Origin: Eledone cirrhosa
Taxonomy: Eukaryota
Length of the DNA stretch: 64,000 nt
Direction: 5' to 3'
Assembly (NCBI GenBank): GCA_964016885.1
Contig: OZ024754.1
Location: 23,994,001 to 24,058,000 of the forward strand
The translations under genes and the position numbers were made by a program. This document shows, piece by piece, positions 1 to 63,087 of this stretch (positions within the stretch are counted from its first letter, which is position 1; each line of letters begins with the position of its first letter). The notes below the pieces were generated by a model, which was not told the DNA's origin, did not search any database, and saw only the letters and a program-made list of their open reading frames with translations.

Positions 1-2438
1 CGATGATAAAAAGGTAGGGAGCCAATGTATCTCCCTGGAGCACTCCAGCCAGTATCTCAAAGAACTCTGTCATCCCATCAGGTGTAATGACTTGGGCTTT
101 GGTGTTGGTGTAGAGCAGTGATATCAGGTCCACTATCCTCTTGGGGATTCCATAAGCCTGTAAGATCTTCATCAGGCAGTAACGGTCCACAGAATCAAAG
201 GCCTTCCTAAAGTCAATGAAAACCATGACCGCAGGAAGGCACTTTGCTCTAGCTCCCTCTAATATCCTCCTCAGCATCAGGATGTGACTGGTGGTTGATC
301 TACCCTCTCTGAAGCCGTTCTGGTTGTCCCTGAGCTTCTTCTCCATCTCAGGCTGGATCCTCTTAAGAATCATCCTGTTGAGGGTCTTTGCCACAAGTGA
401 CGTCAGTGAGATCCCCGGTAGTTGTTGGTGTTAGAGAGATCTCCCTTCTTTGGCACTGGGACGATGTTACTGATCCTCCACTGATTCGGGGCAACTCCTT
501 TCTCCAGTGCCCCGTTACAGAACCCCAGGATGATATCATCAAAATCACACCTCTTCATCACCTCTGATGCCACTCCATCTTCTCCATGAGCCTTGCCCTC
601 CTTGATCTTCTTCTTGGCTCTCTGAAGCTCCTCTCTGGTGAAGGGCTCTGTCTCAACATCCAGTTCCTCAAACAGCCGCCTGATCTCCCCAGTGCTCCGG
701 GCTGTGGAGGGTGGCTCTCCTAGTAGGGTCCTAAAATGGTCTGGCCATTTCCTCTTCCTATCCTTGGGCCCCGTTCCCTGGATCTGACTCGAACACCTTT
801 TCTTCCTCCCTGTGATCTCGTTGATGATCATCCAGCTCTCCTTACATCCAGATCTGTCAACCGCTCTCTCCACACTTCTGATCTTCTCTATCAGTGCCTC
901 CTCTCTGACCTCAGTGTAAGCGGTACAGAGCTCTTCCCTCATCACCTCCACAGTCTCCATCCTCTCCTCCGTAGGATCAGCATAGAATTGGTCCCTGGCA
1001 GCTTTCAGGTGTTCTCTGGCTGCACACACTTTTGGGTTTGCAGAGCTGACGTGCTTCCCTTTGTTCTTTTTCCTCGGCACCAGGGTTTCACTTGCTTTCG
1101 CCACTGCATTGGTGAAGTGCCCGTACCTCCTCGTCACACTCTCCTCAGTCCATCCAATCTCTCTCTCCTCTGACTCTCCACACAGAGCACTAAACCTGTT
1201 TCTCACTTCCACTGTGAACCTCTCCTGTAGCTTATCATCTTCCTTGAAAGATCCCCAGTCATAGATTGTTCTCCGGGGCTGAGCCTTGCTCTTTCTTAAG
1301 CTCACGCGGACCTCACTCATAACAAGCCGGTGGTCACTACCCAGTGTACTGAAATAGCTGTATGGTTCAGTGTTCAGAACACTATTCCGCCACTTTTTCC
1401 TCACCAGAATGATATCAATCTGGGACTTGGACAGGTGCATATCTGAGATGTAGGTCCACATCTTCCCCAGATTCTTCCTAAACCTTAGGTTGGTCGCCAT
1501 CAAGTTCGCCTCCAGCAGGGTGTCTCTCAGTAGTCTTCCATTTCGGTTGGTGTTGTTATGGAAGTACCAGCAAGGATCTTCACTGCCCTCCTTACTCAGA
1601 TGTGCATTGAAGTCCCCCAAAACAAGCAGGATATTGTGTGCCTGAGTGGTGTTGACAGCTCTACACACCTCCTCATGGAACTCCTCGGCATTCACATCAC
1701 TGTCCCCCTCGGTTGGACTATAGGCTGAGATGACTGTCAGTCTTGGGTTTCCATTGAAGGTCACCCTCAACACTCGCGGGGAGATAGGCATTATTTCCCT
1801 CACCAACAAATTGGTTTTTGCACTGAACACAAAACCCACTCCTCCCACTGCAGCATTTGTTGTGTTCTTCACTGCCGATGTAGTGATGAGCTGGCTCTTC
1901 CTCCCGATCATCACACTCCTCACGGGCTCATCGTGTAGAATCCTGTGTTCTTGGATCGCAAGTATCTGTATACCACTCTCCTCGAACAGATGTCCCAACT
2001 CCTCTCTCTTCTCCAGCGTTCGAATAGTCCTCACATTCAAAGTGCCCATTTTGATGGCTCTTCTGCAGGACAAAACTGCATTCTTTATATTTGTCTCAGA
2101 GACAGTTGATCCATCATCCACTGACCCTCTCTATCGCTCTAAGCCAGCAGAGTCATAACGACCAGGCTGCTCCTTGACAGTGTAATTAGGGGCTCTAACC
2201 CTAGTGCTGTTAGATCGACTCTCCATATTTCTTTTCAATGGCTGACAATACCTTACCGGCACCACTCGAATAAGGTAGTTATTTAACCCATAAATGGAGC
2301 CCTAACAGGTACTACCACCCCGGGCCAGGGCAGACCTGGGAGTCATGACAACTAAGGGGTAACTCCACATTCCCCACATCTCCTGAACTCCCGAACTGGA
2401 GCCTTGCCACTGGATGTAGTTTAATGTCATACCCAGGA

Positions 2439-3961: not shown

Positions 3962-6243
3962 CAAACCCAATGTCACAATATACAAACCCAATGTCATCTC
4001 TCCTGTCCATCCGTTTGACGCTATGGATTTCCACAATGCAACCTGGGAAGCGATCAGTCATGATCTTGCACATGTCGACTGGTCCTTCACGCACACTCAT
4101 ACACCCACTAACATCAAAAAGTCCTGGCAGACATTTGTGGACACTGTTACAAACATATGTGCTAAACACACCCCATTAAGAACTATAAACAAATCTAAGA
4201 GCAGAATCCCTAGAAATAGAAAAACGCTCATCAGAAAAATTAAGAGAACGAACAAAAAAATCAACAAGCTGAAATACCGTCAGCAGCAACACATCAACTT
4301 GACTGCCATTTCATCACTAGAGATTAAAAAACATAACCTCCAAAACAACATAATGTCCCTCATCAACAATCAGAGAAGAGCTGAAGAGGCCTGGGCCATT
4401 GAGAAGATCAAACTCAATCCCAAAGTGTTCTTTTCATTTGCAAAAAACACAAAATCACTGGCTCTACTGTTGGCCCTCTAATAGATGAAAATGGCACTCT
4501 TCAAGACAATGCTAAAACCATGGGTGAGATACTGCAGAAACAATACTGCTCTGTTTTCAGCAATCCTGATATGGCCGATCTGGGCTGTATCGGCGATGTT
4601 ACTCCCCATTACACCTTATCGGACATAACATTTGGCGCCCCTGATGTCTCGGCGGCAATAAAGGAAATCAAGCATAATTCAGCAGTAGGTCCCGATAGGT
4701 TCCCTGCTTGTGTCTTGAAGGCGTGTCAACACCAACTTGCATCTCCTCTTGCGAATCTGTGGCGGAACTCACTGGATGCTGGATATGTGCCAGAAAACCT
4801 TCTATCCCAATCTGTTGTCCCAGTTTTCAAAAAGGGAAACAAACAAGTGGTGAGATCGCGAATGACCCACTTCCTTGAGAGTAACAATATGCTGAACTCT
4901 AACCAGCATGGATTCCGTAATGGAAGGGATTGCCTGACGCAGCTACTGCATCACTTTGATGACATTTTGAGAGCCTTGGGAGAGGGTCCCAACACTGATG
5001 TTATCTACCTTGATTTCAGCAAGGCCTTTGACAGGCCTCATAACATTCTACTGAGAAAGCTGTCCAATATTGGTGTCATTGGAAAGCTGCTGCAGTGGAT
5101 CAAGAGCTTCCTGTCAAACAGAACCCAACATGTTGTAGTTGAAGGAGTCAAATCCAGCCCAGCCAAAGTCAGTAGTGGGGTCCCACAAGGCACTGTGTTG
5201 GACCCACTTCCCTTCATCATCTATATTAATGACATCACTGACATCATCAAACACAGCAACATTAAAATTTTCGCTGATGATTGCAAGCTCCAAAAGGTCA
5301 TCAATGGCGTGGATGACTGGATAAGCCTTCAGTCAGACCTATTGGCTGTTACCCAATGGGCGGAAAAGAACAACATGTTACTGAACGAAGACAAATTCGA
5401 ACTGATCCACTTTGGAAAAGAGGATGCTCTGAAACTCCCGTACTCCCTTCCCTCCGGGGAAACTCTCGTGGCATCTAACAACATCAGAGACTTGGGAGTA
5501 ACCGTGGACAGCAACATAAGCTGGGCCACGCATATAAGCAGCAAAGTTGACATGGCCCGCAGAATGTGTTCCTGGATCCTCAGAACCTTCCAGTCGAGAG
5601 ATTCCCACACCATTATCCTTCTCTTCTCGACTTTTGCCCGACCACACCTTGAATACTGTTGTCCACTGTGGTCTCCCCACACGAAACAAAGTATCATGAA
5701 ACTTGAAGCTCCTCAAAGGGCAATCACCAAAAAGATAGATGGCATGTCAGACCTTGACTACTGGGGTCGACTAGAAAACCTGAAACTTTACTCACTCCAA
5801 CGTCGCCGCGAGCGTTATATTATCTGCATGATGTGGAAAATGTTCCATCATCACTGCCCAAATGATGTTGGCATCGCCTTCAAGATACACCCAAGGCTTG
5901 GGCCCCGTGCTATCCGTCCCATACAAAAATCTAAATCACAACTCATAACAACAATACGGCACAATTATTTCACCTCAATCGGCCCTGCTCTCTTCAACAT
6001 CACACCAGGACACGTCAAAACAGAAACTGACCACACAAAATTCAAGAAGTCTTTGGACAAATTCCTCCAAGTAATCCCGGACAAACCACCCACACCCGGA
6101 TATGTCTCTGCAAACAGTAATTCTCTTCTCGAATGGGCCATGGTGCCCAAATCCTGAATTGAAAGACTTCGCCAGGTGGTGCTATTAAGCTAGATATGGC
6201 CTGGGCCAATACTGGCCAAAACATTTCAAAGTTATTCAAAGTT

Positions 6244-6245
<2 letters not shown>
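3959..6245 (+). mobile_element. CR1-group LINE, 5'-truncated defective copy 1
   Basis: Near-identical to the reverse complement of 18066-20395. Has a frameshift near 4445 and lacks the [17 protein letters not shown] segment. RT motifs [14 protein letters not shown] and FADD are present. Ends TTCAAAGTTATTCAAAGTTA then (TA)n. Confidence 0.95.
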
Positions 6246-7548
<1,303 letters not shown>

Positions 7549-8126
7549 GATAAGTCGGCAGACCTCGCAGGGACTCTATATCTTTATGATGTATTGTTTT
7601 TGTTTATGCCACGAAACTACGTAGTCGAGGAATCTAGGAGCAGTTTAGGTATGATACATTTTATTACTAATTATATCTAAATGTTCCTTCTCTCTTCATA
7701 ATGTATTTTTAACTATGATACTGGTTCAGTCTGGTTCAACCGGATTGGTTTGTCCCAGTCATTCATTGAGCAACATCGGTGAGGTTGGCACCCTTAACTC
7801 ACGGTTGGGTGTGGATGCATTCATGTGTGTCCGCATGTATCTGTGTGTTTCTAAATATATTGTTAATAACTCCCTCTGGTTGAGTAATCTTTGAAGTGTG
7901 GTGGCTGCTGGAAAGCTGCCATTACTCATACTTCTCGCCTCCTTCACCACCTCTTCTACGGCTTCGATATGAATACCCCCTCCGCCTCTGTGGTATTTTC
8001 TTCGGGGTTATAAGAGGCTTAGCTCTGTTTCTCGACCGTTATATCGCGTGACTATCTCCCCCTCCGCCTTTTGGGATTCTTTCTCACGTCGTGTAGACGC
8101 GTTCTTGAGACTAGTAAAATGAGGTA

Positions 8127-8216
8127 TCCGCTTGATAAGTCGGCAGACCTCGCAGGGACTCTATATCTTTATGATGTATTGTTTTTGTTTATGCCACGAA
8201 ACTACGTAGTCGAGGA
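8127..8216 (+). ncRNA. Type I hammerhead ribozyme, U3-A8 core variant (stem I mismatch in this copy)
   Basis: TCCGC-TTGATAA-GTCGGCA..TGCCAC-GAAA-CTACGTAG-TC-GAGGA. Confidence 0.65.
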
Positions 8217-8719
8217 ATCTAGGAGCAGTTTAGGTACGATACATTTTATTACTAATTATATCTAAATGTTCCCTCTCTCTTCATAATGTATTTTTAACTC
8301 TGATACTGGTTCAGTCTGGTTCAACCGGATTGGTCTGTCCCAGTCATTCATTGAGCAACATCGGTGAGGTTGGCATCCTTAACTCACGGTTGGGTGTGGA
8401 TGCATTCATGTATATGTGTGTGTCCGCATGTATCTGTGTGTTTCTAAATATATTGTTAATAACTCCCTCTGGTTGAGTAATCTTTGAAGTGTGGTGGCTG
8501 CTGGAAAGCTGCCATTACTCATACTTCTCGCCTCCTTCACCACCTCTTCTACGGCTTCAATATGAATACCCCCTCCCCCTCTGTGGTATTTTCTTCGGGG
8601 TTATAAGAGGCTTAGCTCTGTTTCTCGACCGTTATATCGCGTGACTATCTCCCCCTCCGCCTTTTGGGATTCTTTCTCACGTCGTGTAGACGCGTTCTTG
8701 AGACTAGTAAAATGAGGTA

Positions 8720-8809
8720 TCCTCTTGATAAGTCGGCAGACCTCGCAGGGACTCTATATCTTTATGATGTATTGTTTTTGTTTATGCCACGAAACTACGT
8801 AGTCGAGGA
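8720..8809 (+). ncRNA. Type I hammerhead ribozyme, U3-A8 core variant
   Basis: Stem I TCCTC/GAGGA. Core TTGATAA (8725-8731). Stem II GT(C)GGCA/TGCCAC with a long loop. GAAA, palindromic stem III CTACGTAG, GUC site at 8804. Confidence 0.78.
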
Positions 8810-8878
8810 ATCTAGGAGCAGTTTAGGTATGATACATTTTATTACTAATTATATCTAAATGTTCCTTCTCTCTTCATA

Positions 8879-8939
<61 letters not shown>

Positions 8940-8964
8940 TATATATATACATATATATATATAC

Positions 8965-8995
<31 letters not shown>

Positions 8996-9004
8996 CATAT
9001 ATAC

Positions 9005-9116
<112 letters not shown>

Positions 9117-9120
9117 CTAT

Positions 9121-11746: not shown

Positions 11747-12052
11747 CATATATATATAAAAACAAATAACGAAACGAAATTAAATTTCGTTTCGTTTGTA
11801 ACTCACTTTTGTATGACTGACGCTTAAACAATTAAGTTAAAAATGTACATCTACATATGCATACTGAAATACTAGTGTGTATATGAATACACACACGTAT
11901 ACATATGTAGGTGTACCAAGTCTTTCACTGGTCGCTTTACAGTGAGCGGCCCAGCTATTCTGTATGTAAACACACAGACAAACCGGTTTTTAGAGTCATA
12001 CTGGTTTTTCGGGGGAACACCTTCCCCCTATTCTCCAGAAAGCCAGACAAGG

Positions 12053-12097
12053 AATATTGAACTAGTTTCGTTGTTGTTACAACTCATCAGCAATATT
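12053..12097 (-). ncRNA. Canonical minimal type I hammerhead ribozyme (GUU site)
   Basis: Minus strand AATATTG-CTGATGA-GTTGT aaca ACAAC-GAAA-CTAG-TT-CAATATT. Confidence 0.9.
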
Positions 12098-12633
12098 TTC
12101 CTATCTACCGGCCTTTCTGGAGAATTGTAAAGGCACATATCGTTATATGCTTTTTCTATGAAAATTAGTAGTGGGCAGACTAATTTGCATAGAGTGTGAG
12201 TACGCACCGGTTCAGCGGAGACGATAAAAACAAATAACGAAACGAAATTAAATTTCGTTTCGTTTGTAACTCACTTTTGTATGACTGACGCTTAAACAAT
12301 TAAGTTAAAAATGTACATCCACATATGTATACTGAAATACTAGTATGCATATGAATACACACACGTGTACATATGTAGATGTACCGAGTTTTTCACTGGT
12401 CACTTTACTGTGAGTGTCCAGCTATTCTTAATTGTTTAAGCGTCAGTCATACAAAAGTGAGTTACAAACGAAACGAAATTTAATTTCGTTTCGTTATTTG
12501 TTTTTATCGTCTCCGTTGAACCGGTACGTACTCACGCTCTATGCAAATTAGTCTGCCCACGACTAATTTTCATAGAAAAAGTATATAACGACATGTGCTT
12601 TTACGATTCTCTAGAAAGGCCGGAAGATAGGTA

Positions 12634-12678
12634 AATATTGCTGATGAGATGTAACAACATCGAAACTAGTCCAATATT
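12634..12678 (+). ncRNA. Canonical minimal type I hammerhead ribozyme (GUC site at 12671)
   Basis: AATATTG-CTGATGA-GATGT aaca ACATC-GAAA-CTAG-TC-CAATATT. All three stems are perfect. Confidence 0.92.
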
Positions 12679-12925
12679 CCTTGTCTGGCTTTCTGGAGAA
12701 TAGAGGAAAGGTGTTTCCTCAAAAACCAGTATGACTCTAAAAACCGGTTTGTCTGTGTGTTTACATACAGAATAGCTGGACACTCACAGTAAAGTGACCA
12801 GTGAAAAACTCGGTACATCTACATATGTACACGTGTGTGTATTCATATGCATACTAGTATTTCAGTATACATATGTGGATGTACATTTTTAACTTAATTG
12901 CATATATATATATATACATATATAC

Positions 12926-15460: not shown

Positions 15461-16970
15461 TGAAATATAAGAATCAAAGAACTGCTCAAAACATTATTGT
15501 GCTTACAGCTGTTTCCTCTAAACCGAGGTTTGGATTCTTCGGAGCAATTTATTAATGCATGGACAGTTATATGACCTCCTCTTCAGCCAAGAGACATACC
15601 GATACATATGCAAATATTGTGGGTCAACACTCATTACAGAATTTAGAGTGGCAGTACACACTTCGAGATTACATTCATATTAAGAGGTACAATCAAAAAT
15701 CAAAAATACAGGTTAAAATACAACATGAAGATAAGCGGTTATATAGTGCAAATGTTATATGTGTGGCAAGCATGTGCGTCTTGTTTATATAGTGTGGCAG
15801 AGAGATATGTGTGGTAGAGGCACTTAGGTAGGTAAACAAGAATGTTAGGTTGGTAGATCTGGTGGCAAATTCTTTATATGATTGATATAGTCTGTGTGTG
15901 GAGAAATGTTATAAGCATTAAAAATAGTGCAAGTATTAAAAGTATTAAAAGTATTGGAGATGCACAGCGAAGGGATGTCAAGTATTTCATGTACTTCGAC
16001 ATTTTCATGATTAGGGGAGTGTATTTTTCGATTATATGCCGCTCACATAATCCACGACAATTCGATATTGAGCGTTTGACAATCCAGTTAGAGAATCGTA
16101 GTCTGATGTTCTTTAGTTCAATGTCGTTTTTCGAAACGTAACAGCCTCCTGTATTGAACTAAAGAACATTAGACTACGATTCTCTAACTGGATTGTCAAA
16201 CGCTCAATATCGAATTGTCGTGGATTATGTGAGGGGCATATAATCGAAAAATACACTACCCTGACCATGAAAATGTCGAAGTACATGAAATACTTGACAT
16301 CCCTTCGCTGTGCATCTCCAATACTTTTAACACTTTTAATACTTGCACTATTTTTAATGCTTATAACATTTCTCCACACACAGACTATATCAATCATATA
16401 AAGAATTTGCCACCAGATCTACCAACCTAACACTCTTGTTTACCTACCTAAGTGCCTCTACCACACATATCTCTCTGCCACACTATATAAACAAGACGCA
16501 CATGCTTGCCACACATATAACATTTGCACTATATAACCGCTTATCTTCATGTTGTATTTTAACCTGTATTTTTGATTTTTGATTGTACCTCTTAATATGA
16601 ATGTAATCTCGAAGTGTGTACTGCCACTCTAAATTCTATAATGAATGTTGACCCAGAATATTTGCATATGTATCGGTATGTCTCTTGGCTGAAGAGGAGG
16701 TCATATAACTGTCCATGCATTAATAAATTGTTCCGAAGGAGCCAAACCTCGGTTTGGAGGAAACAGCTGTAAGCACAATAATGTTTTGAGCAGTTCTTTG
16801 ATTCTTATATTTCATATAACTGCTCTGTAAATCATCTGATGTTTTTACATTGAGCTACTTAACTTACTGGCTACTAACATTACTGCCTACCACTATTTAG
16901 GGTGTGTATATAAAAAATACTTATAACTGCATAAGGTTTGGTATTTACATAACCATAAATAGTATAACTA
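15458..16970. mobile_element. Large foldback (arms 15458-16122 and 16153-16817, 30 nt spacer), PLE-derived 3' region with a hammerhead-like motif in each arm
   Basis: The arms are reverse complements with scattered substitutions. Motif TGCT-CCGAAGA-A-TCCAAACC tc GGTTTAGA-G-GAAA-CAGCTG-TA-AGCA at 15500-15546(-), with a variant at 16729-16775(+). Confidence 0.8.
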
Positions 16971-39025: not shown

Positions 39026-39725
39026 AATGTATAAAAATCAATACAATATAATTACCTCATTACCAGAGGTTTCCCGAATGAGGCGAATACGAAATAAACG
39101 ACTTCATTCGTTCGTCAGACGAGGCAATATAAAACATGGGCAAATACTTAGAAAAACACATCAAGAAAATCAAAAAAAGATATAGATAAATGAAATAGAA
39201 ATTGAAATATATAAAAATCTATCAAGAAATATAGTTAGGTGTGTGTATATGTATGTATATACGCTCGCAGATGTGCATATATGTATATGTGTACATGTAT
39301 ATGTATAGTGAGAAAGTGTGCGTAATTCTAAAATAGGGCAAATGTATCTATATGTCTGTATTATACAGACAGAAATGGTTACATGTATAATACAGACATA
39401 TAGATACATTTGCCCTATTTTAGAATTACGCACACTTTCTCACTATACATATACATGTACACATATACATATATGCACATCTGTGAGCGTATATACATAC
39501 ATATACACACACCTAACTATATTTCTTGATAGATTTTTATATATTTCAATTTCTATTTCATTTATCTATATCTTTTTTTGATTTTCTTGATGTGTTTTTG
39601 TAAGTATTTGCCCATGTTTTATATTGCCTCGTCTGACGAACGAATGAAGTCGTTTATTTCGTATTCGCCTCATTCGGGAAACCTCTGGTAATGAGGTAAT
39701 TATATTGTATTGATTTTTATACATT
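39026..39725. repeat. Near-perfect foldback (~340 bp arms, 16 nt spacer) with a hammerhead in each arm
   Basis: The arms differ at only a few positions. Ribozymes at 39052-39127(-) and 39624-39699(+). Confidence 0.93.
39624..39699 (+). ncRNA. Type I hammerhead (mirror copy at 39052-39127, minus)
   Basis: TTGCCTCGT-CTGACGA-A-CGAATGA..TCATTCG-G-GAAA-CC tct GG-TA-ATGAGGTAA. Stem I is 9 bp. Confidence 0.82.
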
Positions 39726-40289: not shown

Positions 40290-40624
40290 ACACATGTGAG
40301 TGTGGTGGACAAAAGGTCGCAATGCATAGGAAAAATCATTGTTTTTATTAGAAAAGAACACGTTAAAAGACAAGTAAATATGGAAACTTAAAAATATAAT
40401 TATTTTTCCTATGTATTGCGACATTTGGTCCACCCTGTTTATGTATGTATATATGTATGTATATACATACATAAACAGGGTGGACCAAATGTCGCAATAC
40501 ATAGGAAAAATAATTATATTTTTAAGTTTCCATATTTACTTGTCTTTTAACGTGTTCTTTTCTAATAAAAACAATTATTTTTCCTATGCATTGCGACTTT
40601 TTGTCCACCACACTCACATGTGTG

Positions 40625-62600: not shown

Positions 62601-63087
62601 TTTGCCAGAGCAGATGCTTGCCCCAGTCGATCTTTCTACTCAGGATCCTACACTCTATGTGAATCGTTTGCGTTCGTATTTTCAAGTCCTGCCACCCATG
62701 AACACTCGGCACCAAGCCGTTAAATCTTCGGTCCCTAGGGACATTGCCTCGTGGACCCATGTTTTCGTCAGCAATGACGCAGTGAGAAGTCCTCTCACTC
62801 CACCTTACTCTGGACCAAATGGCGTGCTAGCACGTTCAGACAAACATTTCACTATTAACTATAACGGGTCTAGAGACACGGTCTCTATTGATAGACTGAA
62901 GCGGGCCTACTCAGATACTCTTACACCAGAGCCTCATACTCCCCCTCCTACACTATGTCACGACAAATGCCTACACCACCGCAAGCACCACAAGCTCACA
63001 CATACACACCTCCACCTTCAACATACGTCACGACAAACCGTAACAGTCCATTGCCCCAAGAAACTGTGTAAAACTATTTTCATATGA
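59690..63087 (+). mobile_element. Decayed Ty3/Gypsy element of the CsRn1/Kabuki/Boudicca type (gag end, PR, RT, RH, IN); no LTRs seen
   Basis: gag WYHKRFAERARRCIKPC, slippery GGGAAAC at 59954-59960, [30 protein letters not shown] (from YIDD), [26 protein letters not shown]. Confidence 0.92.

What the first reader, a model, noticed from the sequence alone, without database searches (positions are those of the whole stretch)
7548..8883. ~590 bp tandem unit with a non-canonical U3-A8 hammerhead core
Seen: the core reads TTGATAA instead of CTGANGA, so the C3-G8 pair is replaced by U3-A8. It sits in a full fold (TCCTC/GAGGA, GT(C)GGCA/TGCCAC, GAAA-CTACGTAG-TC). The sister array at 23859-24795 keeps the core and stems while loop II varies, and it starts and ends at different points of the unit. 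No meaningful ORF. Established: positions 3 and 8 form a Watson-Crick pair and U3-A8 variants retain activity, but canonical pattern searches miss them. Inference: a large retrozyme copied from a circular or multimeric RNA.
Basis: partly seen in the sequence, partly recalled or inferred. Interest (0 to 1): 0.85.

Follow-up and report, generated by a model that had tools for sequence, protein, structure and literature searches.

The report
Retrozyme copied from two fixed starts
This is one of thousands of copies of a 593-base non-coding repeat that carries a predicted self-cutting "hammerhead" RNA with an uncommon but published core pair and sits in TA microsatellites; its ends suggest that a Penelope-type jumping gene likely copies a single, probably circular, RNA from two fixed start points, which is untested.

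Summary
Observation confirmed. 7548-8884 is 2.27 copies of a 593-bp unit with a type I hammerhead fold and a U3-A8 core; the sister array has a 591-bp unit. The genome holds 6,350 such cores, 99 of the first 100 listed being U3-A8. The core is not new: natural U3-A8 hammerheads, about 1,300 tied to Schistosoma Penelope-like elements (PLEs), are in print, and the size is within the published retrozyme range. Added here: (1) 3' ends are fixed at two internal sites, +83-87 and about +250 nt after the cut (94 of 100 ends), not at the cut; (2) 31 of 35 two-armed insertions pair one site with the other, none repeats a site; (3) all units and both arms of an insertion share one haplotype, pointing to one monomer template; (4) a Neptune-type PLE here has a U3-A8 hammerhead, (TA)n targets and paired ends, but no detectable homology to the unit; (5) a possible stem I-loop II pseudoknot. 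Cleavage, expression and circles are untested. The scan met this family twice before in this genome, and similar elements in two others. Verdict: new variant of a known kind.

The parts
7548..8884 (+). Single-armed insertion, 2.27 head-to-tail units; 5' end truncated inside the first core, 3' end at site A
8713..8809 (+). Intact type I hammerhead fold: stem I 8720-8724/8805-8809; core 8725-8731 (U3 8725, A8 8730); stem II 8732-8738/8785-8790 with one bulge; loop II hairpin 8746-8780; GAAA 8791-8794; stem III with palindromic loop 8794-8803; predicted cut after C8804
   Evidence: sequence, folding, pair counts
8713..8745 (+). Possible 6-bp pseudoknot between 8713-8718 (5' of stem I) and 8740-8745 (loop II)
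   Evidence: complementary in 99.1% of cells; one pair seen as U-A, U-G and C-G; competes with an extension of stem I; not probed
8120..8216 (+). Second hammerhead, stem I mismatch at 8130; predicted cut after 8211
7548..7631 (+). First hammerhead, lacks U3 context and the 5' strand of stem I; not expected to fold alone
8212..8804 (+). Predicted 593-nt monomer between two cuts, 43% GC, no ORF; circular fold z -4.8 on this strand, 0.1 on the other
8880..8884 (+). Site A (unit positions 155-159, +83 to +87 after the cut): 3' junction into (TA)n; 2,702 such junctions genome-wide
8452..8458 (+). Site B (unit positions about 320-326, about +250 after the cut), internal here, used as the 3' end by other copies
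6243..7547 (.). (TA)n-type microsatellite, left target flank
8885..9120 (.). (TA)n-type microsatellite, right target flank
23858..24797 (+). Sister insertion, 591-bp unit, two intact U3-A8 hammerheads (23872-23966, 24463-24557), 3' end at site B; the 322 overlapping bases of its two units are identical

Best explanation
A non-coding 593-bp retrozyme family whose copies sit in (TA)n and end at two fixed internal sites; its RNA is predicted to self-cleave to monomers, likely circularises, and is likely copied by the RT-endonuclease of a Neptune-type Penelope-like element. Steps: (1) transcription through a tandem array (inferred; promoter not found); (2) cleavage after C17 by the U3-A8 hammerhead, probably as a dimer through the palindromic stem III and perhaps helped by the pseudoknot (predicted); (3) ligation to a circle (inferred from known retrozymes and from the single-haplotype arrays); (4) the PLE protein cuts (TA)n on both strands and primes reverse transcription inside the RNA at site A from one DNA end and site B from the other (ends shown; enzyme inferred); (5) each cDNA runs a variable length, often past the ligation junction, giving tandem units (shown as genomic structure); (6) the two cDNAs are joined head to head, or one arm alone is joined to the target, often at TA-like microhomology (structure shown; repair path inferred).
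For: 6,350 cores, 99 of first 100 listed U3-A8; canonical version 3 hits, none in a copy of the unit. 94 of 100 3' ends in 65 insertions at A (55) or B (39); 30 5' ends scattered. Genome-wide junctions into TA: site A 2,702, site B 1,086 on the + strand alone, cut site 1. 31 of 35 complete two-armed insertions are A+B, 0 A+A, 0 B+B, 4 irregular. At 45 recurrent polymorphic sites discordance is 23/2351 within an arm, 9/681 between arms, 33784/117917 between insertions; 17 private variants are shared by all covering units of an insertion, 9 across both arms; a loop II deletion is shared by both tandem units of one insertion. No indel at the cut junction in 158 copies. Stem I pair seen as U-A 14, C-G 11, U-G 10. 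A Neptune-type PLE (RT plus C-terminal GIY-YIG; CxxxxCxxC linker) has a U3-A8 minimal hammerhead in both terminal repeats, ends in (TA)n at +82 and +150, and pairs +82 with +150 in 8 of 9 head-to-head copies. A PLE protein in vitro cuts AT-rich DNA on both strands and starts at two internal RNA sites about 85-92 nt after its hammerhead cut (PMC11167929).
Against: No cleavage, expression or circle data. No PLE terminal repeat homologous to the unit: none among 50 PLE loci (one locus held an ordinary copy inserted beside a PLE), and alignment to the best candidate scores 114 against 115 +/- 8.6 for shuffles. Stem III and the base of stem II are weak as a monomer. Only one of nine Xenopus retrozymes tested in vitro cleaved (bioRxiv 10.64898/2026.07.22.740005). 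In the in vitro PLE system hammerhead cleavage was not needed and uncut RNA was the main template, and priming was not homology-based (PMC11167929), whereas sites A and B are TA-like. The A-B spacing (about 165 nt) is longer than 68-69 nt in two other families here and 30-40 nt in print. A second Neptune-type family ends both arms at about the same site in 2 of 2 loci. Two long arrays show partial sharing of private variants, so later local duplication occurs. U3-A8 is invariant, so the pair itself shows no covariation.
Confidence: 0.65

Rival explanations
1. Same PLE-driven element, but the template is an uncut linear multimeric transcript of a homogeneous source array; the hammerhead is slow or vestigial and no circle is needed.
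For: PAc used uncut RNA in vitro (PMC11167929). Weak stem III. Most Xenopus retrozymes did not cleave (bioRxiv 10.64898/2026.07.22.740005). A young source array would be homogeneous, and conversion could homogenise units.
Against: Nearly every one of 37 insertions has its own haplotype yet is internally uniform, and unit-to-unit differences are mostly single-unit changes (107) rather than patterns recurring between insertions; fixing a new variant in all units needs a one-unit bottleneck. Core and stems are kept across subfamilies 83% identical.
Confidence: 0.2
2. The monomer is cut out but stays linear; tandems arise by the RT jumping from the monomer's 5' end back to its 3' end.
For: Also gives single-haplotype arrays. 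Inverted joints show that the machinery switches templates.
Against: 158 of 158 junctions have no inserted or lost base, although imprecise jumps would be expected (own knowledge of non-LTR RTs); circles are shown for coral, mussel and axolotl retrozymes (PMC7229834).
Confidence: 0.08
3. The element is mobilised by one of the (TA)n-associated APE-RT LINEs, or spreads as DNA (satellite-like), and the hammerhead is incidental.
For: APE-RT LINE frames lie between TA tracts in this window. No homologous PLE found.
Against: Two internal paired ends and head-to-head arms match PLEs of this genome and published PLE structure (PMC8557442); arm overlap does not fit LINE twin priming (own knowledge); short arrays at thousands of dispersed sites with strand-polarised ends do not fit DNA-level satellite growth.
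Confidence: 0.07

Closest known systems
Metazoan non-LTR retrozymes (Cervera and de la Pena 2020, PMC7229834, parts 2-4 of 6 read, supplement not seen; Li, Clavereau and Pollet 2026, bioRxiv 10.64898/2026.07.22.740005, parts 1-3 of 5 read, supplements closed)
   Same: Tandem non-coding units each with a type I hammerhead, GC under 50%, palindromic short stem III, co-occurrence with PLEs.
   Different: U3-A8 core, long loop II hairpin, possible pseudoknot; longer than the 150-450 bp of the first paper but inside the 51-972 bp of the second; the parts read do not describe paired fixed ends or within-insertion haplotypes; no pLTR homologue found here.
U3-A8 hammerheads: Schistosoma mansoni Cercyon PLE variant (Cervera and de la Pena 2014, PMC4209133, parts 1-2 of 4 read) and natural core variants (Perreault et al. 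2011, PMC3088659, section 8 and passages read)
   Same: Same covariation of the 3-8 core pair; association with PLEs.
   Different: The Schistosoma motifs are minimal, heterogeneous and mostly single; this one has all three stems and is uniform in a young tandem family.
Penelope-like elements, Neptune and Poseidon clades (Craig et al. 2021, PMC8557442, passages and section 15 read; Frangieh et al. 2024, PMC11167929, parts 1-2 of 4 read)
   Same: Microsatellite or AT-rich targets, tandem and inverted insertions, a 'tail' at one end only, two internal RT starts downstream of the hammerhead.
   Different: No ORF; tail about 165 nt rather than 30-40 nt; starts coincide with TA-like tracts; more than two units per arm.

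Membership tests
Type I hammerhead ribozyme | Core positions U4 G5 A6, A9, G12 A13 A14, A15.1-U16.1, H17, G10.1-C11.1, with a Watson-Crick pair at 3-8 | tested here: met
   All present at 8725-8804; 3-8 is U-A in 36 of 36 aligned copies
Type I hammerhead ribozyme | Three stems round the core, stem I open | tested here: met
   97.3% of cells paired, compensatory change in stem I; stem III weak as monomer
Type I hammerhead ribozyme | [quoted passage not shown] | tested here: inconclusive
   6-bp complementarity kept, one pair varies compatibly; low divergence, alternative pairing exists
Type I hammerhead ribozyme | Match to an Rfam hammerhead model | tested here: not met
   No hammerhead match at E up to 10; expected from the core change and long loop II
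Type I hammerhead ribozyme | Self-cleavage after N17 | not testable with these tools
   Needs in vitro transcription
Metazoan non-LTR retrozyme | Tandem units each with a type I hammerhead | tested here: met
   52 of 65 sampled insertions have two or more cut sites in one arm (sample favours long copies)
Metazoan non-LTR retrozyme | No coding capacity, GC under 50%, no LTR layout | tested here: met
   Longest ATG frame 48 codons, GC 43%; head-to-tail units; no tRNA gene; PBS and PPT not searched
Metazoan non-LTR retrozyme | Expressed as linear and circular monomers | not testable with these tools
   No RNA run was listed
Metazoan non-LTR retrozyme | Target-site duplication when present | tested here: inconclusive
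   Hidden by (TA)n on both sides
Non-autonomous derivative of a PLE | PLE-type ends: internal fixed 3' ends, one-sided tail, inverted 5'-truncated arm | tested here: met
Non-autonomous derivative of a PLE | EN+ PLE with the same target in the genome | tested here: met
   10,597 GIY-YIG candidates, 150 scored; Neptune-type copies end in (TA)n
Non-autonomous derivative of a PLE | Sequence homology to a PLE terminal repeat | tested here: not met
   None in 50 PLE loci; score 114 vs shuffles 115 for the best candidate; no intermediate family by pattern; only a small part of the PLEs was sampled

The most novel reading that the evidence does not exclude
The copies are a genomic record of a PLE mechanism not yet shown: a dimeric PLE protein loads one circular RNA, cuts both strands of (TA)n and runs two reverse transcriptions round the same circle from two obligately different start sites. 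This would explain the tandem units, the inverted arm and the one-sided tail in one reaction, and would be direct sequence evidence that animal retrozymes move through circles using PLE enzymes, with the U3-A8 core shared as a lineage trait between parasite and helper.
Probability: 0.4. Interest if true: 0.72.

Novelty: new variant of a known kind. Interest (0 to 1): 0.45.

Why it matters
That animal retrozymes are copied from circles by PLE enzymes is proposed but, in the papers read, not shown, and how PLEs make tandem, inverted and tailed insertions is called an open question (PMC8557442). A young family with roughly 3,000 insertions (my estimate), two mapped start sites, single-haplotype arms and a candidate helper in the same genome turns both questions into defined experiments. 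It also shows that Rfam models and canonical-core searches miss a whole high-copy family, so retrozyme counts built on the canonical core are underestimates. The U3-A8 pair by itself is known and of modest interest.

Tried and rejected
Rfam on the whole window (list flooded by TA-repeat matches, 150 of 413 shown) and on 8690-8850: no hammerhead match to this element. RNA runs: no RNA holder listed. Four contig sets laid on the unit cover it and show head-to-tail joints, but they are contigs of unknown kind and say nothing on expression; the two low-depth sets from other coded organisms were not used as evidence. Metagenome contigs: 0 matches to a 20-base motif. Canonical-core ancestor in the genome: 3 hits, below the 83 of the reversed control, none in the unit. 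Intermediate families between the unit and the Neptune-type hammerhead: 13 hits, all duplications or deletions of the two known families. Homology to the Neptune-type terminal repeat: not above shuffles. An early reading of a PLE end at +14 was a regex artefact and was dropped. Ends at the cleavage site (linear monomer inserted as such): 1 junction, rejected. Classical LINE twin priming: rejected because the arms overlap and the inversion points are scattered. tRNA-derived head: none by ARAGORN; polymerase III boxes not tested further. TA-likeness alone does not explain the sites: tracts at unit positions about 39, 134 and 285 score as high or higher than site A and are not used as 3' ends. 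Paper searches listed no paper on this family or on paired ends and haplotypes of retrozyme insertions; one search returned mostly shark papers; the library lacks most subscription journals, and supplements of the retrozyme papers were not seen and may hold U3-A8 retrozymes. The host species was not identified.

Full report
Observation. The stretch 7548-8884 is 2.27 head-to-tail copies of a 593-bp unit between (TA)n-type microsatellites; the sister at 23858-24797 is 1.6 copies of a 591-bp unit, 94% identical. The core TTGATAA stands at 8132, 8725, 23884 and 24475. Of the three cores in the named array only the last is a complete fold: the first lacks the 5' strand of stem I and the second has a stem I mismatch. 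Both sister cores are intact and its two units are identical over 322 shared bases, so it is very young. There is no ORF over 48 codons from ATG. Rfam does not see the motif.

Family. A DNA search of the 3.0-Gb own genome gave 2,029 candidates; the 40 scored held 146 matches. An exact pattern allowing either core finds 6,350 sites (control 2); 99 of the first 100 listed are U3-A8 and one is U3-G8. The fully canonical version finds 3 sites, none in the unit. A subfamily 83% identical keeps the core. So U3-A8 is the family state, not decay of one copy.

Structure. On 36 aligned copies chosen from both subfamilies (33 of the 75 distinct variants plus three window copies, picked by hand to span the subfamilies) 97.3% of cells pair under my structure; 0 of 500 shuffles reach that, though relatedness inflates this test, and slid controls give 36-53%. 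One stem I pair occurs as U-A (14), C-G (11) and U-G (10). The loop II hairpin varies mostly by G-U to A-U. Positions 3 and 8 never vary, so their pairing rests on established structure, not on covariation here. I note a 6-bp complementarity between 8713-8718 and 8740-8745, placed where a stem I-loop II contact is needed; pseudoknots do this job in about 40% of natural hammerheads (PMC3088659, passages). It is supported by one compatible variable pair only. Stem III has about 0.09 probability as a monomer, but its loop is a 10-base palindrome, the usual sign of dimer cleavage (PMC4209133). The predicted circular monomer folds at -169 kcal/mol against -141.5 +/- 5.8 for 40 shuffles, z -4.8; the opposite strand gives z 0.1.

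Ends. In 65 complete insertions (of 68 rows; one cut by the locus edge, one nested, one duplicate left out) 94 of 100 3' ends on the ribozyme strand fall at site A (+83 to +87 after the cut; 55) or site B (about +250; 39), while 30 5' ends are scattered. Genome-wide there are 2,702 site A junctions into TA, 1,086 site B junctions on the + strand alone (the minus count is inflated by overlapping gap lengths) and 1 at the cut. This polarity is what target-primed reverse transcription from internal starts leaves (inference). Thirty-five insertions have two arms head to head with both 3' ends outward: 31 pair A with B, none A with A or B with B, 4 are irregular. With independent choice about half would repeat a site; 31 of 31 has a chance near 1e-10 to 1e-9 (hand calculation). 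The sample favours long copies and the start of one chromosome.

One template per insertion. For 37 insertions of the main subfamily (141 segments, 45 recurrent polymorphic sites) discordance is 1.0% within an arm and 1.3% between arms, near the 0.5-0.7% background, against 28.7% between insertions; nearly every insertion has its own haplotype; 17 private variants are shared by all covering units (9 across both arms) and 107 are single-unit. A loop II deletion is present in both tandem units of one insertion. The cut junction has no indel in 158 copies. The simplest reading is one monomer read round more than once and from both sites, that is a circle. Against: two long arrays show partial sharing, so later duplication or conversion occurs, and a young homogeneous linear multimer is not excluded.

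Likely helper. GIY-YIG gives 10,597 candidates; the loci whose output I could see (one search was cut) are PLEs with RT, a CxxxxCxxC linker and a C-terminal endonuclease, the Neptune or Nematis layout (PMC8557442); I call them Neptune-type from this motif and built no tree. Three such families carry U3-A8 minimal hammerheads in their terminal repeats. One (L094, 938-codon frame) ends in (TA)n at +82 (10 ends) and +150 (35; query biased to this site) and pairs the two in 8 of 9 head-to-head copies; its two sites resemble A and B by eye only. A second family ends both arms at about +200 in 2 of 2 loci, so pairing of different sites is not universal. No homology between the unit and any sampled PLE was found: shared machinery is inferred, descent is not shown. 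A second, canonical-core retrozyme in this window (11757-12901, 466-nt unit) pairs +233 with +302 in 15 of 15 complete two-armed insertions, so the pattern does not depend on U3-A8.

Comparison with print. Natural U3-A8 covariation was reported in 2011 (PMC3088659, section 8), and about 1,300 such motifs were found from a Schistosoma PLE (PMC4209133). Retrozyme circles are shown for coral, mussel and axolotl, and PLE mobilisation is proposed there (PMC7229834); family sizes of 51-972 bp and pLTR kinship are in bioRxiv 10.64898/2026.07.22.740005, where one of nine tested elements cleaved. A PLE protein in vitro cuts both strands of AT-rich DNA and starts at two internal sites 111-118 nt into its ORF, the hammerhead cut being at +26, without needing cleavage or homology (PMC11167929). 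My eight searches listed no paper on paired ends or haplotypes of retrozyme insertions; supplements were not seen. Earlier scan notes, looked up after this reading was formed, report the same family twice in this genome and similar elements in two other genomes; they are unchecked AI notes and add no independent support. A look-up by place returned nothing.

Verdict. Real, young, high-copy retrozyme: a new variant of a known kind. The headline feature, the U3-A8 core, is known; the value lies in the end and haplotype record, which makes the circle-plus-PLE model testable. Shown: anatomy, copy number, fixed and paired ends, single haplotypes, co-resident PLEs with like features. Inferred: cleavage, circularisation, identity of the helper, two RTs on one RNA. 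Interest 0.45.

Noticed in passing
window 11757-12901: Second retrozyme family: canonical-core type I hammerhead (Rfam HH9, E 2.5e-6 and 2.4e-5, below gathering), 466-nt unit, two-armed insertion in (TA)n; ends at +233 and +302 paired in 15 of 15 complete two-armed copies; only 42 candidates in the genome search.
   Followed up: partly
L094, L095, L099, L103, L105; L032, L034, L042, L112; L110: Three Neptune-type PLE families with U3-A8 minimal hammerheads, and another (L109, L111) with a canonical core: the core pair differs between PLE families of one genome.
   Followed up: partly
L181, L182, L179, L183: Copies with the loop II hairpin deleted; in L181/L182 both tandem units share the deletion and keep the pseudoknot strand, so the hairpin seems dispensable for transposition.
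   Followed up: partly
L123: A main-subfamily insertion appears nested in an older-subfamily copy.
   Followed up: no
window 403-2130, 4403-6157, 18152-21289, 24645-26986, 55486-56064: APE-RT LINE frames, one of 1,045 codons, most of them bounded by long (TA)n tracts; possibly a TA-targeting LINE.
   Followed up: no
window 60450-63087: Broken LTR-retrotransposon pol (RT, RNase H, integrase order as in Gypsy).
   Followed up: no
window 40401-40512, 39322-39429, 16087-16188: Near-perfect hairpins of about 100 bp round a TA-rich centre, probably small inverted-repeat elements; Rfam microRNA matches are below gathering.
   Followed up: no
window 8300-8335: Stretch of the unit between sites A and B that looks by eye like a polymerase III A box followed by an imperfect B box (motifs recalled, not from a call); ARAGORN finds no tRNA.
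   Followed up: no
window 51159-51867: 32-bp minisatellite, about 23 copies.
   Followed up: no
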